DNA of 35,107 bases. Source: a virus (Duplodnaviria; Caudoviricetes). Below are positions 3,029 through 34,527 of this stretch, piece after piece. Position numbers and translations under genes: made by a program. The notes under the pieces were generated by a model. The model searched no databases and was not told the origin of the DNA. It saw nothing but the letters and a program-made list of their open reading frames with translations. The DNA lies in IMG/VR virus record IMGVR_UViG_3300010376_002105, positions 1-35,107 of that record; one strand, 5' to 3'. How positions within the stretch are numbered: position 1 is the first letter of the stretch; each line of letters begins with the position of its first letter.

Positions 3029-3319
3029 ATGGCGAGAAAAAGACGAACGGCGGAAGAGGATCAATTTAACGCAGTCGTCGGAGCGATGCTCGAGCGCGCG
3101 CGTCGCGAGCGAAAGGTTTCGCTCTCGGAGCTGGCGAAAGAGCTCGGCGTTAGCGTGAAGCAGGTTCACTTTTGGGAGATCGGCGAGAACCGGCTTCCGA
3201 TGTTTCAGATCTACAGAATCAGCCGCTTTCTCAAGGTTCCGGTTACTTCACTGCTGCCGATGGTAAATGTAACTACAAATCCGGAAAATCGCTGCGCAGT
3301 GCTGCGAAAGAGCTGCTAA
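3029..3319 (+). CDS. XRE/Cro-C1 family HTH transcriptional regulator
   Basis: LERARRERKVSLSELAKELGVSVKQVHFWEIGENRL matches the HTH_3 pattern; AGGAG RBS. Confidence 0.88.
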   Translation: MARKRRTAEEDQFNAVVGAMLERARRERKVSLSELAKELGVSVKQVHFWEIGENRLPMFQIYRISRFLKVPVTSLLPMVNVTTNPENRCAVLRKSC

Positions 3320-3379
3320 TTTCAAATTCGACATCTTTCCCGAAGAGCTAATCGGGCGGTGCGCGTGCTGATCATCGCG

Positions 3380-3422
3380 GGAGTGCAAAAGACATGCAGA
3401 ACTGTCTTTGCACTCCTTTTTT
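3380..3422 (+). terminator. intrinsic terminator between the early/middle and late regions
   Basis: GGAGTGCAAAAGACA / TGTCTTTGCACTCC 14-bp stem with one bulge, followed by TTTTTT. Confidence 0.8.
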
Positions 3423-3451
3423 ATTGGCCGAAACATCTGAGGGACTCGAGA

Positions 3452-3994
3452 ATGCGATCGCGCAAAACGCTGATGCTGTACGGGGCGAATACGACGCTCG
3501 GATGGCGCGTCGTGCGGATGATCTCGCCGGAAGAAGGCGAGCGGCGCGAAGCGACCGGATCCTACCGGCGCGTTTACGACGGCATGACGAACGCGCTGCT
3601 CGGTTTTCAGATCGTCGGCGTGGATATTCAGCGCGGCGACGAGGATCTGCCGACGCGTCGATCGTCGCATTCGATCTCGTCTGGAGAGAACCGGACGAAC
3701 GCCGGCCTCGACGGAAAGTCGCACACTTTCGGCCTGGCCGAAGATCTGCGGCTCGAGCGGAAAGTTCCGGAGGATCACGTCGAGCGCGTGCAGGAAAAAG
3801 TTCGCGTTTATCCGCTGCTTCGCGATAAGGCGTCGATCGTGCGTCGCGTCGCGGCCGAGAGCTGCGGCCAGGGGATCGTCTACGTCGGCGGCGGCACGCC
3901 GGCCGGCTGCAATCTGCGCGAAGAGCTGCAGCTTCGTAACGGCGACGAGCAGCTCGAGGAGCTCGTCGCGCTTTCTGAAAAGGCTTGCGCCTAA
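3452..3994 (+). CDS. hypothetical protein (first gene of the late region)
   Basis: ATG at 3452 after GAGGGA; 180 aa; no recognised motif. Confidence 0.6.
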   Translation: MRSRKTLMLYGANTTLGWRVVRMISPEEGERREATGSYRRVYDGMTNALLGFQIVGVDIQRGDEDLPTRRSSHSISSGENRTNAGLDGKSHTFGLAEDLRLERKVPEDHVERVQEKVRVYPLLRDKASIVRRVAAESCGQGIVYVGGGTPAGCNLREELQLRNGDEQLEELVALSEKACA

Positions 3995-4020
3995 AACCAG
4001 GTCAATCAGCGGGGGAACTG

Positions 4021-4236
4021 ATGGATCCAGCATGGGTGACAGCCGGCGTCGGCGTGATCGCGATCGTCGTAACAATGGCGGCCGGCGTTCGCAATTCTGG
4101 CGCACGCGAGCAGCAGTTGCAGGCGCACGAGACGAGGCTTAACAAGCACAGTGCAGAGCTCGACGATCTGCGCAAAGGCCAGGCCGCGCACGGCGAGCGG
4201 ATCGCCGCGGTCGAAGCGCGCCAGGGGGCAAAGTAA
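4021..4236 (+). CDS. small membrane protein, holin/antiholin- or XhlA-like
   Basis: N-terminal TM (WVTAGVGVIAIVVTMAAGV) plus coiled-coil C-terminus; TAATG overlap with the endolysin. Confidence 0.65.
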   Translation: MDPAWVTAGVGVIAIVVTMAAGVRNSGAREQQLQAHETRLNKHSAELDDLRKGQAAHGERIAAVEARQGAK

Positions 4237-4676
4237 TGCAGCTGACAGAGCATTTCTCGCTCGAAGAGCTTACTTTCAGCTCGACGGCATTCGCGCGCGG
4301 CATCGATAACACGCCGGCGCAGGTGATCGTCGAGCACTTGCGCGTTCTGGCGCAGGGTCTCGAGCAGGTTCGCGCGATTCTCGGCAAGCCGATGCACGTC
4401 GACAGCGGTTTTCGCTGCGCAGAGCTGAATGCGCTCGTGCGCGGCGTACCGACGTCTGCGCATCTTTCAGGCTTCGCCGCGGACTTCGTTTGTCCGGCGT
4501 ACGGCGCGCCGATCGAGATCGTGAAAAAGCTGACGTCGCCGCCGAGTGTGATCGAGTTCGATCAGCTCATCCAAGAAGGCACTTGGGTTCACATCTCTTT
4601 CGCGCCGACGATGCGGAACGAAGTTTTAACCGCACATTTTCACGGCGGCAATGCGACTTACAGTCGCGGCCTTTAA
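4236..4676 (+). CDS. endolysin, peptidase M15A (Peptidase_M15_3) family
   Basis: MQLTEHFSLEELT, SGFRC..LN..V.G..TSAH..G.AAD, DQLI.E..WVHIS zinc-peptidase motifs. Confidence 0.92.
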   Translation: MQLTEHFSLEELTFSSTAFARGIDNTPAQVIVEHLRVLAQGLEQVRAILGKPMHVDSGFRCAELNALVRGVPTSAHLSGFAADFVCPAYGAPIEIVKKLTSPPSVIEFDQLIQEGTWVHISFAPTMRNEVLTAHFHGGNATYSRGL

Positions 4677-4707
4677 ACATAGATATTCCATAAACACGAC
4701 GCAGTAA

Positions 4708-4748
4708 GCGCGGCGAGCTCGGGGGAAGGATCCTCGAGCTCGTCGCGT
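4708..4748 (+). other. 18-bp RNA hairpin between the endolysin and the next lysis gene
   Basis: GCGCGGCGAGCTCGGGGG / TCCTCGAGCTCGTCGCGT; the only non-Watson-Crick pairs are four G-U; 5-nt loop. Confidence 0.6.
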
Positions 4749-4771
4749 ATTTGAACGAGAAACGAGGCTTT

Positions 4772-5503
4772 ATGAACTGGAAAAACATCATCGATCATCC
4801 GAAGACGACGGTCGTCGGATTTCTGATCGCGGTCGTGATCGCGGCGCCGATTCTCGAGAAGTTCGATTTCGCGCACGCATCGATCGCGAGTGTGTGCGGT
4901 CTGATCGGCGCAGTTGCGACTGCGCTGCTCGGCGCGTTTCTGCAGGATCCAAAGTCGAAGGCACCGCTCGCCGTGCTGATCTTCGTTCTGATGTTTGCGC
5001 CGGCAGTCTTCGCGCAGCAGGCGGATCCGACGCAGCCGTCGGCGGCCGGCATTTCGTTCTCGACGTCGTCTGAAGCAGTCGCTTTCTATTCAAAAGGCGT
5101 CTGGACTGCAGGCAATGACACGACCGAAGTGCTCTCGGTCGCGAGCGTCGGCAAGCATAAGACAAACGACATCTCGGTAATCGGGAAAGAGATCATCGCA
5201 TCGGATTTTACGTCGTATCTCGGCGGCTTCCGATATGAGCCGGATCTTTCCGGATTCCTGGCAAAGACCCAGATTCCGGTCGCATCGTTTCGAGTCTTTG
5301 TCGACGCAAGCGTCGGGACGTCGATGCTGCCGGCGAATACAAGCGCGGTTACTTGGCTCGCCGGCGGCGGCGCGCGTTACGCGCTCAATAGTTCGGGCTC
5401 GCTGCAGTGGACGACGATCACTGCGAATTACATGCGGGTCGGCAACGAGAACGTAACGAAGATCTCGACGGGTCTGCAGTACTTCTTTCATAAGGCCTCG
5501 TGA
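4772..5503 (+). CDS. holin-like N-terminus fused to an internal signal peptide and a putative outer-membrane beta-barrel
   Basis: Two TMs (PKTTVVG..., ...LLGAFLQDP), then KSKAPLAVLIFVLMFAPAVFA|QQ, then amphipathic beta-strands ending KISTGLQYFF. Confidence 0.6.
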   Translation: MNWKNIIDHPKTTVVGFLIAVVIAAPILEKFDFAHASIASVCGLIGAVATALLGAFLQDPKSKAPLAVLIFVLMFAPAVFAQQADPTQPSAAGISFSTSSEAVAFYSKGVWTAGNDTTEVLSVASVGKHKTNDISVIGKEIIASDFTSYLGGFRYEPDLSGFLAKTQIPVASFRVFVDASVGTSMLPANTSAVTWLAGGGARYALNSSGSLQWTTITANYMRVGNENVTKISTGLQYFFHKAS

Positions 5504-6207
5504 TGCGGTTTCGGCTTTTCATTGTCGGCGTCGTCGTGATTGTCTTCGGGATTCCTGCAGCTCTGCTCGGCCTGGCCGTTTGGGGATGCTTCGGTCTGAC
5601 GCATCACGCGATCGTCGCGATCGACAAGATCGGCGACGCCGGCGTGCAGCTCGGCCGAGCTGGCGATACGATGACGGCCGCGGCGGCTCGCATCAATGGG
5701 AAGCACGGCACGATCGCGATGCTCGACGAGGATCTCGGCGCGACGAAGTCGCTGATCGTTCACGCCGATCTAGTCGCACGGCATGAGCAGCAGCAGCTCT
5801 CAAAGTGGGACGCGCGCGGCGCCGAGCTTTACGCGAACGTAAACGGCAGCGTTACAGATCTGCGATCGACAATCACGAAGGCCGGCGCGACAGAAGATGC
5901 GGCGACCAGGTTCGTCGATACGCTGCGCGCTGCAGCAGCTGACAAAACGAACGGGCTCGGCGCCGTGCTGGCGAATGTAAACGGCGGCGTCGCAGACGTT
6001 CGATCAATGGCAGGCGACGGTCGACGTATTACGAAGGCGACGGCCGGCGCGATGGAGCACGTCGAAGCGATCACGGCCGACGGTCATAAGGTCGCCGATC
6101 ACTACGAAAAAGCGATCGACACAAAGTCGCCTTGGTATATGCGCGTGCTGCCAGGTTGGCTGCAAGAGGCGGCGAAGGTTGCGGTCGAGTACGAAGCGAC
6201 GCACTGA
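5503..6207 (+). CDS. inner-membrane-anchored helical protein, i-spanin (Rz)-like candidate
   Basis: N-terminal TM (FIVGVVVIVFGIPAALLGLAVWG), long Ala-rich helical domain, PWYMRVLPGW near the C-terminus; last gene of the lysis block. Confidence 0.55.
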   Translation: MRFRLFIVGVVVIVFGIPAALLGLAVWGCFGLTHHAIVAIDKIGDAGVQLGRAGDTMTAAAARINGKHGTIAMLDEDLGATKSLIVHADLVARHEQQQLSKWDARGAELYANVNGSVTDLRSTITKAGATEDAATRFVDTLRAAAADKTNGLGAVLANVNGGVADVRSMAGDGRRITKATAGAMEHVEAITADGHKVADHYEKAIDTKSPWYMRVLPGWLQEAAKVAVEYEATH

Positions 6208-6608
6208 TGCCATACACGCCGAAAGTAGTCTGCAGGGGCGGATGCGGTCGACCAGTTGTTAGCGGTTACTGCGAGGTCTGCAGATCGAAAGGCCGACCAG
6301 GTCTCGAGCGGAAGTCGTCGGCGAAGCGCGGTTACGGTCGACGCTGGCGTCGTTATCGGGATGCTTTTCTCGAGACGCATCGGCTCTGCACTGGCATCGT
6401 AAGGCTCGCAGATGGCCGGCAGATCACGAGGCACGTCGGGATCGTGATACTCGCGACGGATGTCGATCACGTGATCGCAGTCGAAGGCGAGACGGATCCG
6501 CTCTTTTACGTCGAAGAGAATCACCAGGCGTTATGTCACGAGTGCCACAGCTTTAAGACTGCACTCGAGAACGGCGCCTTCGGCAACGCGAAAGCATTCG
6601 CGCGCTAG
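6207..6608 (+). CDS. HNH endonuclease, HK97 gp74-like terminase cofactor
   Basis: C..GC...YC; RGYGRRW.R.R..FL..H.LC; ATDVDH; N.QALC..CHS.KT; located just upstream of TerS. Confidence 0.93.
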   Translation: MPYTPKVVCRGGCGRPVVSGYCEVCRSKGRPGLERKSSAKRGYGRRWRRYRDAFLETHRLCTGIVRLADGRQITRHVGIVILATDVDHVIAVEGETDPLFYVEENHQALCHECHSFKTALENGAFGNAKAFAR

Positions 6609-6700
6609 AGGGGATATGGGGGTCTGAAAGTTTTTGGGCAAGGTCTGAAGACCGTGGCCTAGCACCGTTCACGTATCCACAAAATCAAGGTTTTCGCAGT
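6609..6700. other. putative cos/packaging region
   Basis: Non-coding gap between HNH and TerS with a GGGGGTC..AAAGT...GACCG...CACAAAAT layout typical of HNH-TerS cos phages; GGTCTGAA repeated at ~6621 and ~6642; cut site not determinable. Confidence 0.5.
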
Positions 6701-6822
6701 TAGCAAGCAAAGGTTAGCGATCGGCGAATCGGCTGATTGTATGAGGTTTCTCGGCTCAGAAATGGCGCCAGGCGCGCGCCGCGGGGCCCTTCTCGAGTCG
6801 CGAAAGGTCCGGACATCACGAA

Positions 6823-7281
6823 ATGGGAAGGCCGCCGAAGCCGACGAATCTGCTCGAGCTTACGGGAGCATTCCGCAAAAATCCCGGCCGGCGCAAAGCG
6901 CGCGAGCAGGAACCGCAGCCGCCGGCGATCGCGCTCGAGATGCCGGCCAGGTTTCAGATCTTCCATCCGGACATCGGTTTTCAAGACGCCGAGAAGATGC
7001 GCGGCTATTGGAACAAATGTCTCGAGATGTGGCCGTGGCTCACATTCAGCGATTCAGACGCGCTCGAGTTTTACTGCGATCTGAAACTGAAGGTCGCGAA
7101 AGGGAAGGCCGACGGGACCGAGAAAAACCTGATCGCGAAGATGATCTCGGAATTTGGCGGCACTGGCGCCGGCCGCGCAAAGCTCGGCGTGCAGGCCGCA
7201 AAGCTCGGCGGCGCACCGAAGGCCGCCGCGGCGCCGGCGGATCCGCGCGCTGCATTCCTGGCGCGCCGAAAGTTTGGTTAA
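6823..7281 (+). CDS. terminase small subunit (P27-like)
   Basis: N-terminal MGRPPKPT.L..L.G...NPGR motif; D.DALE.YC; EFG.T..GRAKL; directly upstream of TerL. Confidence 0.85.
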   Translation: MGRPPKPTNLLELTGAFRKNPGRRKAREQEPQPPAIALEMPARFQIFHPDIGFQDAEKMRGYWNKCLEMWPWLTFSDSDALEFYCDLKLKVAKGKADGTEKNLIAKMISEFGGTGAGRAKLGVQAAKLGGAPKAAAAPADPRAAFLARRKFG

Positions 7282-7284
7282 TTC

Positions 7285-8982
7285 ATGGGTCGCGAACGCA
7301 CGGTCGCCGAGAAATACATCGCCGACGTGCTCGCCGGCCGGATCCCGGTCTCGAAGCTCGTTCGGCTGCAGATCGAGCGGCACGTTCGGGATCTGAAAGA
7401 GGGAAAAAGCCGCGGCCTCTTTTTCGATCGCGAGGCCGCGCAGGACGTAATCGATTATTTTCCGCTTTTCTGCTGCGGCGTCGACGGCGATTACTTCGGG
7501 AAGCCGCTCGAGCTCGATCCGGCCTGGCAGGCTCTGCTTTGGATCCTGTACGGGTGGAAACGGAAAGACGAAAAAGGTCGCACGCGCCGGCGTTTCAAGA
7601 TCGCTTATTCGGAGATGGGCGCCGGGAATCTGAAGTCGCTCATTCTTTCGGGGCTCTGCCTTTACGAGCTGCACGCGTTCGGCGCTCTCGGCGCGCAGGT
7701 GTACGCCGCGGCGACCGATCGCAAAACCGCGCGGCGCGTCTTCGACACTGCGTCGACAATGGCGCAGCAGTCGGATTACCTGCGCGATAACCTGCTGATC
7801 GGAAAAGAGGCGATCGCGGATCCCGCGACGGGCTCGAAGTTTGAACCGTGCGCGGCCGAAGATCAGAACCTGCAAGGCCTGCGGCCTTCGTTCGTTTGTA
7901 TCGACGAGCTTCACGCGCACGCGTCGGCCGGCGTCTGGAATGCGTTTTACTCGCGTCTCGGTAAAACGGATCAGCCGCTGATGTTTGCGATTACAAATTC
8001 CGGCATGGACCGGAATTCGGTTTGCTACAAGCAGCGCGAGTACTCCGAGAAGGTGCTCGAGGGGATCATTCCCGACGATACCTGGTTTGCGTGGATCTGC
8101 GGCCTCGACGCCGCCGACATCGAAGCGGAAGACGGTTGGGAAAACGAGACGAACTGGCCGAAGGCTAATCCCTGTTGGGGAACGGCCATCCGGCTCTCGG
8201 AGATGCGAGAGCAGGCGACGAAGGCGAAGGGGGATCCGAGTTCTCTCAATACGTTCTTGCGTTTTCGGCTCTGCGTCTGGACGACTTCGTTCTCGGCGTG
8301 GATGCCGATCGACAAATGGGATCTCGGCCGGCGGCCGCTCGAGAGTCTCGAGCTGCTGCGCGGCCGGCGATGCCGCGGCGGCCTAGATCTCTCGACGACG
8401 ACCGACGTCTCGGCCTTCGTGCTGCTCTTCGATCCGACGGCCGACGATCCGTTTTATCGCGTGCTGCCGTTTTTCTTTCTGCCGAAAGATAACATCGCCT
8501 TCCGAGTGCGGCGCGATCGCGTGCCGTACGACGTATGGGCTCGCGAAGGGATTTTTAACTTAACGCCTGGCGGCTCGATCGATTACCGAGCTATTCGGGC
8601 GAAGATCCTCGAGCTTCGCGACGTCTTCGAGTACGACATCGCGCAGATCTACTTCGATCGCTGGAATTCGAGCGACATCGTTACGAATCTCGGCGAGGAC
8701 GGCTTCGAGATGGTTCGCGTCGGCCAGGGCTTCGCCGGCATGGCCTATCCGACGAAACGTCTGCTCGAGCTCGTGCTCGGCGGCGAGATCGCGCACGACG
8801 GAAACAAAGTGCTTCGATGGATGGCTTCGAACGTAATCGTGCAGCAGGATCCGGCCGGCAACTCGAAGCCGGATAAAAAACGGAGTCGCGAAAAGATCGA
8901 CGGAATTGTCGCTCTGATCATGGCCGTTACCGGCATGATGGGCGCCGTCGACAATTCGCCGGCGATCGATTTCGCAGGTTAA
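7285..8982 (+). CDS. terminase large subunit (Terminase_1 family)
   Basis: L.PAWQ adenine motif, RRF..AY.E, variant Walker A GAGNLKS, Walker B FVCIDELH, nuclease motifs GLDLS.T.D and KIDG.VA. Confidence 0.97.
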   Translation: MGRERTVAEKYIADVLAGRIPVSKLVRLQIERHVRDLKEGKSRGLFFDREAAQDVIDYFPLFCCGVDGDYFGKPLELDPAWQALLWILYGWKRKDEKGRTRRRFKIAYSEMGAGNLKSLILSGLCLYELHAFGALGAQVYAAATDRKTARRVFDTASTMAQQSDYLRDNLLIGKEAIADPATGSKFEPCAAEDQNLQGLRPSFVCIDELHAHASAGVWNAFYSRLGKTDQPLMFAITNSGMDRNSVCYKQREYSEKVLEGIIPDDTWFAWICGLDAADIEAEDGWENETNWPKANPCWGTAIRLSEMREQATKAKGDPSSLNTFLRFRLCVWTTSFSAWMPIDKWDLGRRPLESLELLRGRRCRGGLDLSTTTDVSAFVLLFDPTADDPFYRVLPFFFLPKDNIAFRVRRDRVPYDVWAREGIFNLTPGGSIDYRAIRAKILELRDVFEYDIAQIYFDRWNSSDIVTNLGEDGFEMVRVGQGFAGMAYPTKRLLELVLGGEIAHDGNKVLRWMASNVIVQQDPAGNSKPDKKRSREKIDGIVALIMAVTGMMGAVDNSPAIDFAG

Positions 8983-16751: not shown

Positions 16752-18052
16752 GGGTAACTTCCGGTTGTCGGTTATCCGACCAGATAACGACAGAGATAAG
16801 CAAAATGGCTAAGAATCGATAGAAGGTAGCCTGTTGCTCATTTCACCGTTCGGAGCGCGTTAATGTTTCGTATTCGTTCAGAGGCACTCGTTACGGCAGT
16901 TTATTTGACGGCATTGTTAACGAGCGTTCCATACACCTCAGCTACGGCCCAGCAGGTTGCGGTTATTCCTGTGCCCGATCAGGCAACTCCCTACACATTT
17001 CACGTGACGAAGAGCGAAGTGGTGATAGACGTTATCGCGGTTGATGCCCAGAATCGTCCTGTCCTCAACCTGGCTCCCGCAGATTTGAAACTCTTCGAAG
17101 CCGACCCACCGCGCAAAACGGCCAAGTCAATTGCAAGCCTCCGCGTCGTCGATCCGTCTTCTTCCCCGTCAACGCCATCTGCCTTGCCGCAGACAGATTT
17201 CCTCGGCCTTGTCCATGGCAGCTGTATGCTTACCTACATCGCGCACTACCAACTTGCCTATGACCCTGGACCCGATGGATCGATACCCGGTATTCACACT
17301 GTCGAAATCCAGACGAAACGCCGGGGTGTAAGGCTTTTCTACCGCCACGGCTATTTTGTCAGCCCGCCAATTGCTCCCGAAGACCCCGGGCACAAGCCGA
17401 GGATCCTCGCCACAGTTATTGCGACGACGCAAACGAGCAACCAGCCGGTCACTCCGAAGTTTCAGACAGACAGTGTAGCGGGCTTCTCGGCTCAGAGGGC
17501 GCTCGACTATGCGGTCAACTCGTTCGGATCAACCGTGCCCAACGCAGGTTCGCTCTGTGCAGATGTGTACGAGATTCCAGTGGAGACAAAACGGCTCCCC
17601 GACTTTAAGCGTCTGAGTTCAATCGGTATCATCTACACAGACTTCCTGGCGGTCTCGCGTGCGGCGAACGTCGTCGGCATTGGGCTCCCTAATATAACCA
17701 CTCGGACCGAATGGATCGGCCTCGACTATTACGGCAGAATCTGGATTACCCATCCTGGCTCCTACGAGTTCCAGATGATCTCCGATGACGGTGCCTTGCT
17801 CGAAATCGACGGTAAGCCCGTCATCGACCTCGACGGAATCCACGCTGGCAAAATGGGGTCGGGACAGATCACTTTGGAAGCGGGTCCGCATACACTGCAT
17901 ATCCCTTATTTTCAGGGACCGATTATGGCCGTATTAACGGTTTGGGTAAAGGCCCCAGGCGAGCCGCTGACCATCTTCGACACGCGAAGTTTCGCTCCGC
18001 AGCCTGCGACGACTATGTCAGGTCGATGAGCATCGCAAACCGGAAGTCACCC
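16752..18052. mobile_element. inverted-repeat-bounded single-gene cassette inserted in the tail operon
   Basis: GGGTAACTTCCGGTT (16752-16766) and AACCGGAAGTCACCC (18038-18052) form a 14/15 inverted repeat; the interior lacks the phage word bias. Confidence 0.65.
16863..18029 (+). CDS. secreted protein: acidobacterial VWFA-related N-terminal segment plus C-terminal PA14 domain
   Basis: Signal peptide (..SATA|QQ); F.V...V.IDV..VD...RPV.NL...D..LFE; Y.LAY.P...H.VEI...R.G..L.YR.GY; PA14 signature WI...Y.GRIWI..PG.Y.F...SDDGA.L.IDG..VID.DG.H...YFQGP. Confidence 0.8.
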   Translation: MFRIRSEALVTAVYLTALLTSVPYTSATAQQVAVIPVPDQATPYTFHVTKSEVVIDVIAVDAQNRPVLNLAPADLKLFEADPPRKTAKSIASLRVVDPSSSPSTPSALPQTDFLGLVHGSCMLTYIAHYQLAYDPGPDGSIPGIHTVEIQTKRRGVRLFYRHGYFVSPPIAPEDPGHKPRILATVIATTQTSNQPVTPKFQTDSVAGFSAQRALDYAVNSFGSTVPNAGSLCADVYEIPVETKRLPDFKRLSSIGIIYTDFLAVSRAANVVGIGLPNITTRTEWIGLDYYGRIWITHPGSYEFQMISDDGALLEIDGKPVIDLDGIHAGKMGSGQITLEAGPHTLHIPYFQGPIMAVLTVWVKAPGEPLTIFDTRSFAPQPATTMSGR

Positions 18053-18138: not shown

Positions 18139-18315
18139 ATGGCAGGCAGCATCTTCGAGGAGTATGCAACAGAGCAGGCGGCCGAGGACTCGCTCAGGGA
18201 AAGAGTCGAGAACGAGGCTCATCGGATCACGGTGCTTAAAATCGGGTTCGGCGTTTTCGTCGGGAATCTGTTCACGGCGATCGTCGTCGCGATTGTTTAC
18301 GCTCTTATGAAATAA
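18139..18315 (+). CDS. 58-aa membrane moron protein, superinfection-exclusion candidate (not in the ORF track)
   Basis: AAGGAGG RBS; MAGSIFEEYATEQAAEDSLRERVENEAHRITVLKIGFGVFVGNLFTAIVVAIVYALMK*; acidic N-terminus and one C-terminal TM. Confidence 0.75.
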   Translation: MAGSIFEEYATEQAAEDSLRERVENEAHRITVLKIGFGVFVGNLFTAIVVAIVYALMK

Positions 18316-26338: not shown

Positions 26339-26857
26339 ATGAACAAGTGTGTTGAGATTGGGCTATTGACCCTTTGTGTCTTTCTCTGCGGATGTGACGC
26401 CGACCGGATCGCGAAGCTCGAAAAAGAAAATGCGGACTTGAAAGCTAAGGTCGAGAAAGTCGAGAAGCAACAAGCCGCCTCTGATTACGATCTTCAGGCG
26501 AAATGCGCCAGAGACGCGCGAACGTGGTTCAACCAGAGTTGGTCACACGATAAAACGACGCTGCTGCTCGACTTCAGCAATCACTACAGCGCCGCACACA
26601 ACAAATGCTTCATCGTCGTCGAGTGGCATTACAGTTCCGGTCTTGCCGGTCGCGTCTCGGATACTTCATGGACGAACGACACGAGTCTGTGGAACGTCTA
26701 CGAGAATACGAAGGACGCTGAGTTCGTTGAAAATCATTACATCGATCTGAAGACGAACATCAGCCCGCGTGATGACGTGATCACATGCCAGGTGACGGGA
26801 GATAACTGCAAGACATACGCAGACTTCAACAATCGTGCCGCCCAGTACGTAAAGTGA
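26339..26857 (+). CDS. lipoprotein moron
   Basis: Hydrophobic signal ending in a lipobox-like LCG|C; coiled coil; four further Cys; NHY....NKCF; lacks the phage word bias. Confidence 0.75.
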   Translation: MNKCVEIGLLTLCVFLCGCDADRIAKLEKENADLKAKVEKVEKQQAASDYDLQAKCARDARTWFNQSWSHDKTTLLLDFSNHYSAAHNKCFIVVEWHYSSGLAGRVSDTSWTNDTSLWNVYENTKDAEFVENHYIDLKTNISPRDDVITCQVTGDNCKTYADFNNRAAQYVK

Positions 26858-28811: not shown

Positions 28812-31265
28812 TTATATGTTACCTTGAGCAATCAGCTTATTCCGGAATGCATCTGACAGTCGTGGAGGCGAATAGAGAATGCGATCAAGCCATGTGACAA
28901 CATCATAGAAGTAACTGTCGGCCTGGATGTACTTAGTGAGCACATCGTCTATTTCGCTTTTCTCATGGCGCCGAATCAGAGCAGACAAAGCCCCAATTCG
29001 AAACGCTTTCTCTTTATCGTGCAAACATTCTCTTAAGACCTGATCAAGATTGAAGGATGTCTGCGAGATTAGCCAAGACATCGCGATCTTCGAGAGACCG
29101 CTATTCTCGCTAAGGACCAGTTCACGCCACGTTTCCAATGGATCTGAGGAAAGTTTCAGCGCACCTAGGGCTGCTTTCTTTTGTCGCTCACCGTAAGTAT
29201 CAAATGCCATCTTTAGCAGGTCTTGCACTTCATCTGAAGTTCCAAATTGTAGGACAACCTCAAGAGCGGCATCACGTGCACGATATGTGTCTTGCTTCAG
29301 ATAGGACTTTGCAATCTTGACACCTTCAGGAAACGGGTTCTTTGCAAGCCCTCGCAATGCAGCTTCCGCGAACTGCTCGCCGATGAATTGGTCCAGATTC
29401 TCGAACGATTCCTCAATTCTTCTTACTTCTTCAGGTCCCTGCGTTTCTCGAACTGGACGGAGGCTCTCTTCCCTGATTCTGCGAAATCCATCCGTGAAAT
29501 CTTGGATAAGAGTTGGCGCGATACTCTCGAAGTGATCTAGGGCGAGAGCTTCATAGGCTAAGCGCCCTTCAATTGAGTACCAATTGACAACCTCTTCTAG
29601 ATTATCTTTGCTGAAGGTACGAAAGAAACTGAGAATGACTGCATCATCCTTCGGGATCGAGTCATCTTCGTGCCCTCCTAGCGCCCCGACAAGCCCACCA
29701 TAGAGGGCGGCGTGCTGAGGATCGGGATCTTGCAATGCTTTTCGGACAAGATCAAGCGAAGGGAGAATTCCATTCTTCGCCAAAACCTGCAGCGAAATAG
29801 CTCTCACGGGTAGGGATGAATCGACCGAATATTTTTTGGCGATTTCGACCGAAATCTTTTCTCTCCTTGAGAGTTCCTGTAGGCACAATTGCCGTATCTG
29901 TTCCCATGAGCCATCCAATCCCTTCAGAAGAACAGCTTCACTTGCGTTGGATACATTCTGCTTCAAGACTTTCATCCAATCGGAAGAGATAGACTCATCT
30001 TTTGAAATCGCCTCTGTTAACGCATCATCGGGATGGAGGCGAACCAATATTCGAAATCTTGCGTCCTCCGCGCCGTTTATGATCCAGGAGTCCTTCTCTC
30101 CGGCCTTAAATTCCTCAAGAAATTTGATTGTCGAATCATCTCCAACTTCCGCAAGAAGCTTAAAAGCACTCTCGCGAACCCACAAAGATTCATCCTGGAT
30201 TGGGAGCATTGAAATCTGATGTTCCGGGATTGCAGCTTTCAGAAGAGTGAGGAGTTCCAATGCGCCTATGCGGACTTCGTCCGCGCGGTCATACATCGCA
30301 AGTTCAAAAATCCGGTTTTGGGCTTGAACATCGTCCTGATCTTGAAACCAAAACCATCCCGGATTCACATCCCCACTCTCACCGACGAAAGAACGAATCA
30401 ATTGAAGCTTTTCATCTTCTGCCGGTTTCAATTCATTTCGATGCTTATAGAGCAGATTGATTTCATGTGTATCAATAAGAGAATTCGTATATCGCTTAGA
30501 GATGAGTGTTTCCGACAGTAGAAAGAGACGCGCTACCTCAAATTCACTGAGGGTTCCCTCGCGTTCAAAGAAGCGGAGTCCATCGCTGGACGCTGCGCTG
30601 ACAAGCGTCTCTGATGTTGATTTGAGTTGAGGAGGAAGATAATTCGTCAAATCGGACGTTCCAGCGATCTCGATGTCTGCAGTTCCAACCAGATTAGAAC
30701 TCGATAGAGATGTTGCGTTCTTTTCTGGGATCTCCGGATGGTGAGCTGCAAATTCGAAGAGGTATTGGGGAAGCCAGAGATGGAGTTTGTCTCTCCAATC
30801 ATCGGAATGTTCGACTCTTGCGAATTTCACTTCATTGAGTTGAATCTGCTGCTTTTTGAACTCGAGTACCTTCTTTAACTGATCTCCGGGGTCTTTCGTT
30901 CTGCTTTCTTCCACATCTTTGAAGAACAGACAGATTTCGGGGCTTCCACTCCGTCTTCTGTTCGACTTTGCGCGCTCAAACTCTTCTTCAAACCCGGACG
31001 AATATCCTCCTGTTGGTTGACCCCACCTTTCCCAAAGGAGGCCGATGAAGAGATCGCAAGTGTCCAGAATCGGATTGATTGAATCCTGAGGTCTACCGAA
31101 TAGTGGAGGCGTGTCTTCCCAGAGACGAAGCTTAATGTCCCATCCCTGTCTGTTTGCGGTCGACTTGTTAACAAGTTCGACAACACGTTCGGCGATCTCT
31201 CTTTCCTTTTGAACATCACTCGGAGAGGCGAGAAAAATAGTAAAAAGCTGCTGAGTTCTCTGCAT
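28812..31265 (-). CDS. DUF4062 (TIR/deoxyribosyltransferase-like) domain plus HEAT/ARM-like repeats; defence candidate
   Basis: IFLASPSDV..ER, WE...P..GRPQ..IN..L..CDLFIGLLW.RWG.PTG...SG.EEEF; repeated VR..A...L helical units; lower GC. Confidence 0.8.
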   Translation of the reverse strand: MQRTQQLFTIFLASPSDVQKEREIAERVVELVNKSTANRQGWDIKLRLWEDTPPLFGRPQDSINPILDTCDLFIGLLWERWGQPTGGYSSGFEEEFERAKSNRRRSGSPEICLFFKDVEESRTKDPGDQLKKVLEFKKQQIQLNEVKFARVEHSDDWRDKLHLWLPQYLFEFAAHHPEIPEKNATSLSSSNLVGTADIEIAGTSDLTNYLPPQLKSTSETLVSAASSDGLRFFEREGTLSEFEVARLFLLSETLISKRYTNSLIDTHEINLLYKHRNELKPAEDEKLQLIRSFVGESGDVNPGWFWFQDQDDVQAQNRIFELAMYDRADEVRIGALELLTLLKAAIPEHQISMLPIQDESLWVRESAFKLLAEVGDDSTIKFLEEFKAGEKDSWIINGAEDARFRILVRLHPDDALTEAISKDESISSDWMKVLKQNVSNASEAVLLKGLDGSWEQIRQLCLQELSRREKISVEIAKKYSVDSSLPVRAISLQVLAKNGILPSLDLVRKALQDPDPQHAALYGGLVGALGGHEDDSIPKDDAVILSFFRTFSKDNLEEVVNWYSIEGRLAYEALALDHFESIAPTLIQDFTDGFRRIREESLRPVRETQGPEEVRRIEESFENLDQFIGEQFAEAALRGLAKNPFPEGVKIAKSYLKQDTYRARDAALEVVLQFGTSDEVQDLLKMAFDTYGERQKKAALGALKLSSDPLETWRELVLSENSGLSKIAMSWLISQTSFNLDQVLRECLHDKEKAFRIGALSALIRRHEKSEIDDVLTKYIQADSYFYDVVTWLDRILYSPPRLSDAFRNKLIAQGNI

Positions 31266-31388: not shown

Positions 31389-32330
31389 TTACGTCTCTTT
31401 GACCACGTCTTGTGGCTTCTTGTCGCGCCGCAATCCGACGAACGACGCGTGCCGCAGCCGGTCGTCCGGTGTCCACTCGGCGAACTCGATCTCGGCAACT
31501 GCCTGAGGTTTGAGCCACTGGCATTCCTTCATCTTCTCTGCAGTGATCCCCTGTCCCCATACGCCGGCGCGCTTGTCCGGCAGGTTCGCGAAGGGACACT
31601 GCGCGATCTCCAGCTGCTTGACCTGGTCGTGCACCTCGCGCCGCATCGGCGGATTGAATCCGGCTCGGACGCTGCCGGCGAATCGCAGCTCCTTTCCGCG
31701 GTAGAAGCCGACCAGGAGCGCGTCGAGACCGAGGTAACTCGGCGTGTAGCCGCCGATCACAAACTCCTGCCGGCGATCGAAGCGCAACTTCACCCATGAG
31801 CCCGATCGCCCTTCGCTCACGTAGGAGCTGTCAGCTCGTTTGGCAACAATTCCCTCGAGCCCCTGCTCTCTGACGAAGCGTTCCAGGCCTGCCAGGTTGT
31901 CAGTCCACTCTGCGACCTGAACGTGACTGCTGCGCTTCACCGTCGACCGGAGCAGCGCGCGACGATCAGACAGCGGCAGCGTCTTGACGTCCTTGCCCTT
32001 GTGGACCAGGATGTCGAACGCAAAATACATCAGGTGGGCCGAGCCGCTGCGGTAATTCTGCAGCAGGTTGAAGCGAGGCAGGCCATCCTCATTCAGGGCC
32101 ACCAGCTCACCATCGAGCACCGTTTCCGATGGCAGCTTCTCGAGCTCCAGCGCGATCGGCATGAACTGGCTGGTCAGGAGCTTCCCTTGCTTTGAGTAGA
32201 GGATGACATGATCGGTGCGTACGGCTACGGCGCGAAAGCCGTCGAGCTTCACTTCATACGTCCACCTGCCGCCGGTGGGCAGCTTCTTCACGGCGACGGT
32301 CTCCATCGGCTTTATGAAGCGGGCGTTCAC
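31389..32330 (-). CDS. ligD: ATP-dependent DNA ligase (LigD ligase domain only)
   Basis: Motif I EVKLDGFR, LDGELV, FAFDIL, EGIVAKR, WVK, EFVIGGYT, V.EIEF.EWT...LRH.SF.GLR.DK. Confidence 0.93.
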   Translation of the reverse strand: MNARFIKPMETVAVKKLPTGGRWTYEVKLDGFRAVAVRTDHVILYSKQGKLLTSQFMPIALELEKLPSETVLDGELVALNEDGLPRFNLLQNYRSGSAHLMYFAFDILVHKGKDVKTLPLSDRRALLRSTVKRSSHVQVAEWTDNLAGLERFVREQGLEGIVAKRADSSYVSEGRSGSWVKLRFDRRQEFVIGGYTPSYLGLDALLVGFYRGKELRFAGSVRAGFNPPMRREVHDQVKQLEIAQCPFANLPDKRAGVWGQGITAEKMKECQWLKPQAVAEIEFAEWTPDDRLRHASFVGLRRDKKPQDVVKET

Positions 32331-32351: not shown

Positions 32352-33302
32352 TCAAGGGCTGGGTTCGATGCCGATCCGATCATTGACAGCCGCTCGAATG
32401 CGCTGCTTGGAACCCAGGTATCGTTCCGTGGTCTGAATGGAGACGTGGCCGAGCAGGAATTGGATCTGCTCCAACTCGCCACCGGCAGCTTGGCATAGTC
32501 GAGCGCATGTCCGCCTCAGGTCATGGGGTGCAAGCCTGACGACGCCAATCTTTTGGGAGTTGTGCTTCACGATGTGCCAGACCGCCTTCTCGGTCACTCC
32601 GTCTCCCCAGATCGTTCCTACCCGGCTCACTCTGCGGAAAACCTTTCCCTGTCGGATTCCCGCTGAAGTGAGCCATTGATCCAGCTCAGCCCATACCCAA
32701 TCTGGGATTGGCACTGTTCGGATGTGTCCGGCCTTGCCGACAAGGTCAACGATCGCCCAATGCTCCTCGCGTTGCTGAATGTCGGTCAGCCTAAGATGTG
32801 CCGCTTCGCGTCTTCTCAGGCCGCATGCCAGCAACAAAGCAAGCAGCGCTCGATCTCGCTTTCCTTTCAGCACCCGACTGTCTGGCGCCTGCCACAGTGC
32901 TTGCCCCTGCTCTGGCGTGAGCCAATTGCCGAGGCGAACCCCGAGCTTCTTTAGCCCCTTGACCCGGCGGATGCCTGCAGCAAGGTCGGAACTGAGCAGG
33001 CCGCAGTCGGCGGCTTCATACGCCAGCCGTCGAACCGCGCCTAGTCGGAGGTTGATTGTGCCCGGTGCGAGCATCCTCGATTCCAGATGGCTTCGGTACC
33101 GGAGGACTACAGTCCGATTGAGCGCCAGACGCGGCTCAGAGCAGTACCATTCAATAAACTCATCGATTGCGTGCTGGTACCCGCGCTGGGCGTCAGGACT
33201 CGTAAGGCTGTTCAGGACCGCAATTTTGGCATGTTCAAGATCGGGAAGCCGCAGAACCCTGCGCGGCTTCTTTCGCCTGTCTCGGGGACGCTTCGACTTC
33301 AT
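32352..33302 (-). CDS. tyrosine recombinase / phage integrase family
   Basis: RDRALLALL..CGLRR.E, GK.G..R.VP, HDLRRTCA, QFLLGH.S..TTERY catalytic residues; the start could be 33335. Confidence 0.95.
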   Translation of the reverse strand: MKSKRPRDRRKKPRRVLRLPDLEHAKIAVLNSLTSPDAQRGYQHAIDEFIEWYCSEPRLALNRTVVLRYRSHLESRMLAPGTINLRLGAVRRLAYEAADCGLLSSDLAAGIRRVKGLKKLGVRLGNWLTPEQGQALWQAPDSRVLKGKRDRALLALLLACGLRRREAAHLRLTDIQQREEHWAIVDLVGKAGHIRTVPIPDWVWAELDQWLTSAGIRQGKVFRRVSRVGTIWGDGVTEKAVWHIVKHNSQKIGVVRLAPHDLRRTCARLCQAAGGELEQIQFLLGHVSIQTTERYLGSKQRIRAAVNDRIGIEPSP

Positions 33303-33609: not shown

Positions 33610-34527
33610 TCAGCCATAGAAGTTCTGCAGGCCCCAGAAATTTAAGCCGTGCACAAGTACAGCAGGGAGCAGGCTCTTGGTGCGATGGGTGAGGTAGCCC
33701 CAAAGAAAACCAATCGGCATGATCTGCAGAGTTGATAGGAACGCAGAAAGCCAAGTGCCGTGGAGGTTTGCTGCATGGAATTCCGGTATGTGCAAGCACG
33801 CCCACAAGAATGTCGCTGTCACGAAGCCCATGCCGGTGCTCCTGAATGCGGCACCTAGACGCGTCTGCAGGAGCATACGCGTGAACTCTTCACTGAGAGC
33901 TGCCTCCACAAAGCCAATCCATAGCAGCCACCACAGACCCCAGGAGTGAATGAGCTTCTTCCAGAGAATCCCACCGGGCGCAACAACAAAAGCCATGGTC
34001 CCGATGAGTCCCACTACGACGGGGCCAAGGTACCAGCGTTTCATCGTGATGCCCAGTTCCCGAAGTTTGTATCGATACCCAAAAAGATACAGTAGCGCCA
34101 GACCGATCGGGAACACGAACATCATCAGGACGAGAAAGATCCCACGTTCGATCGGAGGTAAACCAACAGGTCCAGCCCAGGGACCGCGAAAGCGAAGGAA
34201 GAGACCACAGAAACCGAGTGCCGTAAATCCCAAGATGACGGCCGCTTCCGTGCCGACGGAATGATGGATCGGGAATCCCACCGCTGCCTGGGAGCTGGAG
34301 GTGACGAAATCCGTTACGAAGACACCGAGCCAAATAGCAGCAATATATCCAATCGCGTGCGGTATCTGATTTGTGCGAGCGCCCAAGTCTATAACGCGTA
34401 CGCATGCAGCGAGGACGATAAGCGCGGCGATGGGATAGCTGCGGACTATACCGTACTGGCGGCAGAAGGCGCAACGGATGCGGTCTTCTACCGAGAGCCG
34501 AGGCGTGGTCGAAGTAGCACTGCTCAT
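33610..34527 (-). CDS. CPBP family intramembrane glutamic endopeptidase (CAAX protease/Abi)
   Basis: Multiple TMs; EEFTR.LLQ, LWA.LH, G..WGYL..RT.SL...V..HG..F motifs; start placed at the ATG inside the flanking repeat. Confidence 0.9.
   Translation of the reverse strand: MSSATSTTPRLSVEDRIRCAFCRQYGIVRSYPIAALIVLAACVRVIDLGARTNQIPHAIGYIAAIWLGVFVTDFVTSSSQAAVGFPIHHSVGTEAAVILGFTALGFCGLFLRFRGPWAGPVGLPPIERGIFLVLMMFVFPIGLALLYLFGYRYKLRELGITMKRWYLGPVVVGLIGTMAFVVAPGGILWKKLIHSWGLWWLLWIGFVEAALSEEFTRMLLQTRLGAAFRSTGMGFVTATFLWACLHIPEFHAANLHGTWLSAFLSTLQIMPIGFLWGYLTHRTKSLLPAVLVHGLNFWGLQNFYG

What the first reader, a model, noticed from the sequence alone, without database searches (positions are those of the whole stretch)
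4772..5503. Holin + internal signal peptide + outer-membrane beta-barrel in one lysis gene
Seen: residues 1-60 look like a two-TM small holin (HPKTTVVG...LLGAFLQDP). Residues 61-81 read as a complete signal peptide (KSK, hydrophobic core, AVFA|QQ, cleavage at nt 5014/5015). The remaining ~160 aa are alternating-pattern strands (YLGGFRYE, FRVFVDASVG, WLAGGGARYAL) ending KISTGLQYFF, which fits the G-x-x-Y-x-F beta-signal recognised by BAM. Known: holins are normally standalone inner-membrane proteins, and OM barrels such as Lom have an N-terminal signal. Inference: a polyprotein processed by signal peptidase I that delivers a holin and an OMP in 1:1 ratio.
Basis: partly seen in the sequence, partly recalled or inferred. 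Interest (0 to 1): 0.78.

Follow-up and report, generated by a model that had tools for sequence, protein, structure and literature searches.

The report
Phage lysis polyprotein with swappable cargo
In this soil prophage, the gene after the cell-wall-cutting enzyme joins a small membrane protein (likely a holin) through a buried export signal to a predicted outer-membrane barrel; related phages keep the signal but swap the barrel for another beta domain or a predicted lipoprotein, so one chain is likely cut into parts for both membranes and may breach the outer membrane without the usual spanins.

Summary
Observation confirmed. 4772-5503 (+) encodes 243 aa: two hydrophobic segments, a signal-like third ending AVFA|Q (nt 5014/5015), and a domain predicted as an 8-stranded outer-membrane barrel (pLDDT 91; NspA Z 14.7). 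It follows an M15 endolysin in a prophage whose terminase is 76% identical to an Acidobacteriaceae one. The join is no artefact. The cleavage-type site follows the last hydrophobic segment in 94 of 95 fused homologues, against 25 of 174 upstream segments. Both halves also occur as separate genes, and fused and split forms alternate at least 14 times on the barrel tree. New here: the same modules fuse to a second beta domain or, through a lipobox (104 of 105), to a helical lipoprotein; barrel and lipoprotein never share a locus (0/26, 0/39). Corrections: the membrane product would be 81 aa with three segments, the protein ends FFHKAS, and fusion is optional. Holin identity is inferred: no holin family matches, and module-lipoprotein copies also sit in host chromosomes. 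Cleavage and the barrel's role in lysis are untested. This scan noted similar genes on other DNA (three unchecked notes). Not found in the papers searched.

The parts
4772..5503 (+). Fused gene, 243 aa precursor (P0001)
   Evidence: homologues
4772..4951 (+). Residues 1-60: two-TM small membrane module (HPKT...QDP type), predicted N-in/C-in, likely holin
   Evidence: cores 13-28 and 41-53, positive-inside counts; stand-alone 56-83 aa genes ending at the same ..AKD/ARD point in L068-L070
4952..5014 (+). Residues 61-81: internal signal-peptide-like segment (KSK, hydrophobic core, V-F-A|Q), predicted SPase I site after A81
   Evidence: 12 of 21 residues differ from the near-identical P0003, against 6 of 210 in module plus barrel, while the pattern is kept
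5015..5500 (+). Residues 82-243: Q-starting mature domain, predicted 8-stranded outer-membrane beta-barrel with a short Pro/Ala linker
   Evidence: AF2 pLDDT 91.2, pTM 0.82; NspA Z 14.7, rmsd 2.1, 127 aligned; OmpW 13.6; OmpA 13.1; face analysis
5465..5488 (+). Last strand with beta-signal pattern S-x-G-x-x-Y-x-F (motif definition recalled), followed by HKAS
   Evidence: sequence; S 127, G 126 and F 122 of 146 rows
4236..4676 (+). Endolysin, Peptidase_M15_3, no N-terminal hydrophobic segment (would need a holin)
   Evidence: Pfam E 6e-15; phrog_894 E 4e-36; TM count 0
4021..4236 (+). 71-aa one-TM plus coiled-coil protein; rival or helper holin candidate
   Evidence: weak XhlA hit, 17.7 bits against cut-off 34.7; similar genes in many cassettes
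4708..4748 (+). 18-bp RNA hairpin between endolysin and the fused gene
   Evidence: z -3.57; stem kept and loop changed in L001
5503..6207 (+). 234-aa protein: N-terminal TM or relaxed lipobox (WG|C), long likely helical rod, amphipathic end; i-spanin-like candidate, present in only a few cassettes
   Evidence: no family hit

Best explanation
The gene sits directly after the endolysin of a prophage and encodes one precursor that is likely cut by host signal peptidase I into an 81-residue inner-membrane protein (likely the holin) and a predicted 8-stranded outer-membrane barrel, which likely serves the outer-membrane step of lysis. Steps: (1) TM1 and TM2 would insert N-in/C-in (inferred from charge bias). 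(2) TM3 would act as an internal Sec signal and thread the rest into the periplasm (inferred). (3) SPase I would cut A81|Q82 (inferred from a conserved site). (4) The released domain would be folded into the outer membrane by BAM through its last strand (predicted). (5) At lysis the small membrane product would let the signal-less M15 endolysin out, while the accumulated barrel would weaken the outer membrane in cassettes with no recognisable o-/u-spanin (weakest step). The design arises when the stop between a holin-like gene and the next exported-protein gene is lost and that gene's own signal peptide stays functional. The cargo slot takes barrel A, beta family B or a helical lipoprotein. 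My odds by step: barrel 0.93, cleavage 0.85, module is a holin or holin partner 0.65, barrel acts in lysis 0.4.
For: Barrel: eight best rows, Z 13.0-15.1, are membrane barrels; avidin-type soluble barrels 9.1 or less, designed soluble ones 11.2; one face hydrophobic and almost uncharged, the other Gly/Ser/charged. Signal: 94 of 95 fused and 68 of 72 stand-alone barrels carry small-x-[AGS]|Q after the last core, against 25 of 174 earlier cores. Fast divergence with a kept pattern, 12/21 against 6/210, Fisher p 1e-10. Signal-to-barrel linker is 0-49 aa, in many cases too short to span a periplasm uncut (inference). The same slot holds an SPase II lipobox, G|C, in 104 of 105 fused lipoprotein forms. 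No in-frame start before the signal in the window. Topology: among 66 three-core proteins, K/R in the N-tail in 65, none in loop 1 in 51, present in linker 2 in 56. Context: a peptidoglycan-hydrolase candidate lies within 2.5 kb in 19 of 26 distinct barrel loci and 33 of 39 lipoprotein loci (16 and 30 without one unverified type). A separate small hydrophobic gene lies upstream of the stand-alone barrels in L008, L012, L016, L043 and L139. Barrel and lipoprotein never co-occur (0/26, 0/39). No lipobox candidate near 15 of 21 barrel genes. L003 against L140/L141: same endolysin and module, different beta cargo.
Against: No holin family hit at cut-off for any module. The ESM Atlas gives holin clusters only at 0.85, a lead. 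A second holin candidate (4021-4236) is in the same cassette. Module-lipoprotein fusions also lie in Acidobacteriaceae chromosomes beside a PurN-like gene with no phage genes seen in about 3 kb (L057, L064, L065), which is odd for a lethal holin. Eight-stranded barrels are usually narrow, non-lytic proteins (established knowledge: OmpA, OmpX, Lom). No conserved catalytic His/Ser/Asp set. Two barrel loci with full flanks (L006, L017) show no recognised endolysin. Several stand-alone lipoprotein loci have no module directly upstream. The search profiles held signal and N-terminal columns, which favours fused, Q-bearing hits. Foldseek against PDB gave no hit at E 0.001 or better (best OmpX 1.1e-3).
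Confidence: 0.58

Rival explanations
1. Cleaved polyprotein, but the barrel is a passenger of the lysis region, like lambda Bor/Lom or Cor (recalled): a surface protein for superinfection exclusion, receptor masking or lysogen fitness, with no part in lysis.
For: Best fold matches are small non-lytic OMPs (NspA, OmpX/Ail, OmpA). The cargo is swapped between near-identical phages (L003 against L140/L141), as variable surface genes often are. A strong hairpin separates the gene from the endolysin. Module-lipoprotein copies are kept in host chromosomes. Phage-encoded 8-strand barrels are common in BFVD.
Against: Fusion to a holin-like module would tie expression to a lethal late product. No promoter-like site in 3300-6900 (sigma-70 consensus only). 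Barrel and lipoprotein exclude each other, and most barrel cassettes have no spanin-type lipoprotein.
Confidence: 0.27
2. The N-terminal module is not a holin but a small inner-membrane helper (antiholin, Lcc6-like factor or membrane anchor); the true holin is 4021-4236 or another gene.
For: No holin profile hit; chromosomal copies beside a PurN-like gene; a one-TM coiled-coil gene in most cassettes. LambdaSo needs an extra 65-aa TM protein, Lcc6, besides its pinholin (10.1101/2024.01.23.576932, abstract).
Against: Size, two-TM N-in/C-in topology and position match class II holins (definition recalled). Stand-alone copies of 56-83 aa exist. Several different two-TM modules fill the same slot, as holins do.
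Confidence: 0.25
3. The precursor stays uncut, or is cut slowly: TM3 tethers the barrel to the inner membrane, so that barrel insertion pulls the two membranes together or jams BAM, a reversed unimolecular spanin.
For: One chain carries determinants for both membranes, as u-spanins do (10.1101/515445, passages). Internal position could slow SPase I. 15 of 95 fused proteins lack K/R in the 9 residues before the picked core (where about 10 cores were mis-picked).
Against: Cleavage-type site kept in 94 of 95; SPase II-type twin in 104 of 105; linkers as short as 0-3 aa; 80 split forms.
Confidence: 0.1
4. Artefact or neutral read-through: a lost stop codon or assembly error with no biological meaning.
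For: Fusion is optional and has switched many times; the closest barrel relative, P0004 (63% identity), is stand-alone.
Against: 101 fused homologues from many assemblies, with DNA checked in more than 20 loci; independent near-relative L001 has the same open frame with a re-written but intact signal.
Confidence: 0.05

Closest known systems
Holin-endolysin-spanin cassette (lambda S/R/Rz/Rz1; class II holins such as phage 21 S, recalled)
   Same: Small two-TM protein next to a cytoplasmic endolysin, between late regulatory genes and HNH/terminase.
   Different: Module is fused to an exported cargo; no holin family hit; no o-spanin lipoprotein found in the window cassette. PMC6116005 (passages) describes holin, endolysin and spanin as mechanistically independent proteins.
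Unimolecular spanin (T1 gp11 type)
   Same: One polypeptide with inner- and outer-membrane determinants in a lysis cassette.
   Different: u-spanins have an OM lipoprotein and an IM transmembrane determinant in one working chain (10.1101/515445, passages). Here the order is reversed (orientation of gp11 recalled), the OM part is an integral barrel, and a cleavage site separates the halves.
Disruptin gp28 of phiKT (spanin-less lysis)
   Same: Candidate answer to the same gap: 91 of 677 genomes of phages of Gram-negative hosts had no identifiable spanin (10.1101/515445, passages).
   Different: gp28 is a 56-aa cationic peptide made in the cytosol; this is an exported barrel or lipoprotein.
OmpA/OmpX/NspA/OmpW 8-stranded barrels, including lambda Lom (Lom recalled)
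   Same: Predicted fold: NspA Z 14.7 (rmsd 2.1, 127 aligned), OmpW 13.6, PagL 13.5, OmpA 13.1; beta-signal.
   Different: 8-17% sequence identity, no Pfam hit, an extra short helix after strand 4, and an internal instead of N-terminal signal.
FbcH of Bradyrhizobium japonicum (cytochrome b-c1 precursor cut at an internal signal; recalled, paper not seen)
   Same: Bacterial polyprotein: membrane protein, internal signal, second protein.
   Different: Both FbcH products stay in the inner membrane as one respiratory complex; not phage, no OM barrel, no SPI/SPII cargo swap. Searches returned no paper on its processing.

Membership tests
8-stranded outer-membrane beta-barrel (OmpA/OmpX/NspA type) | Eight antiparallel strands superposing on solved 8-strand OM barrels | tested here: met
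   Predicted model: (Z 13-15 to NspA, Thermus OMP 3dzm, OmpW, OmpA)
8-stranded outer-membrane beta-barrel (OmpA/OmpX/NspA type) | One hydrophobic uncharged face, one small/polar face, aromatic ends | tested here: met
   clearest in strands 4, 5, 6 and 8 (charged fraction 0.01-0.03 on the hydrophobic parity); inside/outside assignment inferred, no coordinates inspected
8-stranded outer-membrane beta-barrel (OmpA/OmpX/NspA type) | C-terminal beta-signal polar-x-G-x-x-hydrophobic-x-aromatic (recalled) | tested here: met
   S232-T-G234-L-Q-Y237-F-F239 with a 4-aa tail; strict pattern in 90 of 143 rows without gaps
Pfam OMP families (OMP_b-brl, Ail/Lom, OmpW, PagL) | Sequence hit at gathering threshold | tested here: not met
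   (0 of 88 proteins at cut-off)
8-stranded outer-membrane beta-barrel (OmpA/OmpX/NspA type) | BAM-dependent outer-membrane location | not testable with these tools
   needs fractionation
PagL lipid A deacylase | Conserved catalytic His-x-Ser near the C-terminus (recalled) | tested here: not met
   No His column at 60% or more; H111 is in 82 rows but is Ala in the window protein
Class II holin | Under 100 aa, two TM, N-in/C-in | tested here: met
   module residues 1-60; stand-alone copies. After SPase I cleavage the product would carry a third segment
Class II holin | Encoded next to an endolysin | tested here: met
   window 95 nt after the M15 endolysin; 19 of 26 barrel loci; chromosomal copies lack this
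Class II holin | Hit to a curated holin family | tested here: not met
   best: phrog_126 E 0.47; ESM Atlas holin clusters 0.85; none
Class II holin | Timed lethal membrane lesion that releases endolysin | not testable with these tools
   needs lambda S complementation
Class II holin | Dual-start holin/antiholin motif | not tested
   only noted: in-frame TTG 7 codons upstream
Sec/SPase I substrate | Basic n-region, hydrophobic h-region, small residues at -3/-1 | tested here: met
   own pattern counts, (SignalP not available)
Sec/SPase I substrate | Signal at the N-terminus | tested here: not met
   signal begins at residue 61; no in-frame start codon in the 18 codons before its core
Sec/SPase I substrate | Cleavage in vivo | not testable with these tools
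   needs N-terminal sequencing
Unimolecular spanin | OM lipoprotein lipobox plus a C-terminal IM transmembrane segment | tested here: not met
   single Cys at 42 in TM2; C-terminus is a beta-strand
Two-component spanin (as cassette partner) | o-spanin lipoprotein gene in, overlapping or next to an i-spanin gene | tested here: inconclusive
   relaxed lipobox scan of + strand 3300-7300 finds only the rod gene itself; a crude scan can miss short nested genes

The most novel reading that the evidence does not exclude
Acidobacterial phages use a lysis design without spanins: a signal-peptidase-processed polyprotein delivers the holin to the inner membrane and an exchangeable outer-membrane effector (8-strand barrel A, beta family B, or a four-helix-bundle lipoprotein) to the outer membrane, where it carries out the outer-membrane breach. 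Host SPase I or II is the processing enzyme, as in polyproteins of enveloped animal viruses.
Probability: 0.3. Interest if true: 0.9.

Novelty: new variant of a known kind. Interest (0 to 1): 0.7.

Why it matters
About 15% of phages of Gram-negative hosts have no spanin (10.1101/515445, abstract), and lysis in Acidobacteria phages was not found described (0 papers). This family gives named candidates for the missing outer-membrane step that can go straight into lambda S and Rz/Rz1 complementation tests. Apart from function, about 95 barrel and 105 lipoprotein fusions show that a signal peptide behind two TM segments keeps its SPase I or SPase II site under selection. That implies Sec, BAM and Lol accept cargo from internal signals, and that N-terminal-only signal predictors mis-annotate such genes.

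Tried and rejected
Family scans of the protein, its halves and its homologues against Pfam, PHROGs and NCBIfam gave nothing at cut-off. PDB sequence search gave only a designed TM barrel at E 0.38. No match among annotated phage genomes for P0001 or the L012 module. The genome-contig scan with a barrel alignment confirmed none of 33 pattern hits. In 301 genomes drawn from the family of G001, 11 matched the barrel alignment, mostly weakly: module-lipoprotein genes, one fused gene, one stand-alone and host OMPs sharing the last strands. Internal restart as the usual source of the barrel was rejected: 10 of 23 fused genes have no start codon before the signal, and only 2 have start plus RBS plus basic residue (the script stopped after the 23 barrel genes, so lipoprotein genes were not tested). 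Soluble beta-sandwich rejected. PagL-type enzyme rejected. Barrel with the 5503-6207 rod in complex prediction: no answer, score 0.00, not evidence either way; rod homologues were found by only window/L001 and L017/L031/L032, with L043 similar by eye. The lipoprotein cargo folds as a helical bundle (pLDDT 85) with only generic matches (best Z 14.5 to a designed bundle; none at E 0.001 in BFVD). No RNA holder listed. The upstream hairpin is not general: z of -2.5 or lower upstream only in window and L001 of 23 genes. The Q-rule paper (PMC5837995; abstract start and passages) calls the rule Bacteroidetes-specific and does not mention Acidobacteria, so I do not count Q+1 as proof of pyroglutamate formation. 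Literature searches found no description of this design; subscription papers and bioRxiv supplements are not covered.

Full report
Observation. Hydrophobic cores lie at residues 13-28, 41-53 and 64-80, and A81|Q82 falls at nt 5014/5015. The protein ends FFHKAS, four residues after the beta-signal. The window is a prophage: HNH, terminase, portal, prohead protease and capsid follow, and an integrase lies at 32352-33074. The gene is 95 nt downstream of an M15 endolysin (Pfam E 6e-15) that has no hydrophobic N-terminus. Its terminase is 76% and 63% identical to those in two Acidobacteriaceae MAGs, so the host is probably an acidobacterium (inference).

The C-terminal domain. AlphaFold2 with 146 sequences gives pLDDT 91.2, pTM 0.82, eight strands and one short helix. 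The eight best structural matches (Z 13.0-15.1) are membrane barrels: a Dot/Icm porin chain, NspA (Z 14.7, rmsd 2.1, 127 aligned), a Thermus OMP, a designed TM barrel, OmpW, PagL, OmpA and OprF. Avidin-type soluble barrels reach 9.1 and designed soluble ones 11.2. Foldseek ranks OmpX and NspA first but only at E about 1e-3; phage OMP-like models match in BFVD (5 at E 0.001 or better). In the alignment one face is hydrophobic and almost uncharged, the other Gly/Ser/charged, and the last strand keeps S, G and F in 127, 126 and 122 of 146 rows. No catalytic His is conserved. No Pfam, PHROG or NCBIfam family matches.

The fusion is real, optional and recurrent. Searches gave 193 proteins (one search listed the best 150 of 180). 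With a barrel-only profile, 188 scored 25 bits or more: 101 fused, 80 stand-alone with an N-terminal signal, 7 fragments (automatic classes). These profiles held N-terminal columns, which favours fused hits, and one 'stand-alone' (P0039) proved to be a mis-called piece of a fused gene. On a FastTree of 121 barrels the fused/alone label changes 26 times, at least 14 forced by well-supported branches (shuffled mean 34.6); the window barrel's nearest non-twin, P0004, is stand-alone. The upstream modules fall into one large chained cluster of 81 and eight small clusters. In all four distinct stand-alone barrel loci I could read, a separate small hydrophobic gene lies upstream (L008, L012, L016, L043); in L016 it is about 400 nt away. 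The window's own module type occurs as 56-83 aa stand-alone genes ending at the same point (L068-L070).

The internal signal. After dropping 14 proteins by hand (doubtful starts, chimeras, the duplicate P0002) and one with no core called, a small-x-[AGS]|Q site follows the last hydrophobic core in 94 of 95 fused and 68 of 72 stand-alone proteins, but only 25 of 174 upstream cores. Charge bias in 66 three-core proteins fits N-in, loop out, linker in, so TM3 points the cargo outward (65, 51 and 56 of 66). Between P0001 and its twin P0003, 12 of 21 signal residues differ against 1 of 60 in the module and 5 of 150 in the barrel, yet the pattern is kept, which is how signal peptides evolve. The window has no in-frame start codon in the 18 codons before the signal core, nor do 9 more of 23 fused genes; only 2 of 23 have a plausible restart. 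So in this phage the barrel can be exported only from the full precursor. Cleavage is inferred; SignalP and DeepTMHMM were not available.

P0007, P0008 and P0010 carry the window's module and signal but a different beta-rich domain (family B; not folded). L003 and L140/L141 have the same Tlde1-type enzyme and the same module and signal, yet barrel A in one and family B in the others; L139 holds family B split. In the Acidobacteriaceae prophage L045 the same module runs into a signal ending G|C and a helical cargo. That family gave 1777 hits; among the best 120 listed, 105 are fused, 104 with G|C, and 15 stand alone (ranking favours fused). The cargo folds as a helical bundle with only generic matches. 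A peptidoglycan-hydrolase candidate lies within 2.5 kb in 19 of 26 distinct barrel loci and 33 of 39 lipoprotein loci (16 and 30 if the unverified L014 type is dropped; Tlde1-domain proteins are counted as candidates by inference). Five of the seven barrel misses are cut contigs. No locus holds both barrel and lipoprotein within 3-5 kb. A relaxed lipobox scan found no candidate near 15 of 21 barrel genes, and in the window cassette only the rod gene 5503-6207.

Mechanism. Shown: the three-part sequence, its conservation, the split forms, the cargo swap and the position. Predicted: the barrel fold. Inferred: Sec insertion, SPase I cut, BAM assembly, holin activity. Weakest: that the barrel performs the outer-membrane step. 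For this last step speak the mutual exclusion of two unrelated OM-type cargoes in one slot and the lack of o-/u-spanin candidates. Against it, small barrels are usually narrow and harmless (established knowledge), and cargo swapping also suits a variable surface or exclusion factor.

Results against the holin reading. No module hits a holin family. The best leads are phrog_126 at E 0.47 and ESM Atlas holin clusters at 0.85. A one-TM coiled-coil gene (4021-4236, weak XhlA hit) is a rival candidate. Module-lipoprotein fusions also occur in Acidobacteriaceae chromosomes next to a PurN-like formyltransferase with no phage genes seen in about 3 kb (L057, L064, L065). Several stand-alone lipoprotein loci have no module directly upstream.

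Comparison and novelty. The cassette works like holin-endolysin plus an OM factor, but the protein is not a u-spanin (no lipobox, reversed order) and not a member of any curated holin or OMP family. I read passages of PMC6116005, 10.1101/515445 and PMC5837995, and the abstract of 10.1101/2024.01.23.576932; all other papers were seen as search listings only. FbcH, Lom, Bor, Cor, holin classes and the beta-signal and PagL motifs are recalled. Nine searches found no such polyprotein; the library lacks most subscription papers. This scan's own notes report holin-signal-barrel genes on other DNA (e1-8184329, e1-8697254, e1-6471142) and other internal-signal fusions in bacteria; they are unchecked and not independent support. 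A word search for the lipoprotein version returned nothing.

Verdict. A real, conserved and apparently undescribed precursor design; polyprotein processing is likely, holin identity is plausible, and the barrel's role in lysis is open. Interest 0.70.

Noticed in passing
L045 3214-4044; L094, L097, L100, L102, L110 and others: Same two-TM modules fused through an internal lipobox (G|C) to a helical lipoprotein: an SPase II twin of the finding, 1777 hits, also stand-alone.
   Followed up: yes
L057, L064, L065, L081 (also L056, L063, L067): Module-lipoprotein fusion in Acidobacteriaceae chromosomes; in L057, L064, L065 next to a PurN-like gene, in L057, L064, L081 behind a 92-94 aa helical ORF; no phage genes seen nearby. 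Possibly domesticated.
   Followed up: partly
window 4708-4748 (+): 18-bp hairpin between endolysin and fused gene, stem kept in L001. Similar long hairpins lie just downstream of the cargo gene in L009, L014, L024 and L045.
   Followed up: partly
window 5503-6207 (+); L017 5442-6107; L043 4512-5150: N-anchored long rod with a conserved W...P amphipathic end, directly after the barrel gene; i-spanin-like, relaxed lipobox only in window and L001.
   Followed up: partly
L004 5567-5818; L045 4103-4393; L068 1227-1499 (-); L080 1090-1365 (-): A recurring 83-96 aa protein of no known family follows the cargo gene in both barrel and lipoprotein cassettes.
   Followed up: partly
L108 3948-4511 (also L086, L118, L128, L133): PLD-like domain protein (Pfam PLDc_2 E 5e-18) with a signal-like N-terminus inside lipoprotein-type lysis cassettes; a possible lipid-attacking lysis accessory.
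   Followed up: partly
L003 2637-3020; L012, L013, L015, L037, L110, L140: Tlde1-domain proteins (PF10908) occupy the endolysin position in several cassettes.
   Followed up: partly
L043 3622-3918 and 3875-4447: Split form in which the module gene overlaps the barrel gene by 44 nt in another frame: one frameshift away from a fusion.
   Followed up: partly
L014 6081-6590: 169-aa protein with no Pfam or PHROG hit whose relatives sit next to six cargo genes; probable unclassified endolysin.
   Followed up: partly
window 26339-26857 (+); 16863-18029 (+); 18139-18315 (+): Predicted lipoprotein, a PA14-domain exported protein and a 58-aa one-TM protein inserted among tail genes; moron-like.
   Followed up: no
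window 28812-31265 (-); 31389-32306 (-); 33610-34386 (-): DUF4062 plus HEAT-repeat protein (817 aa), an ATP-dependent DNA ligase next to the integrase, and a CAAX protease at the prophage edge.
   Followed up: no
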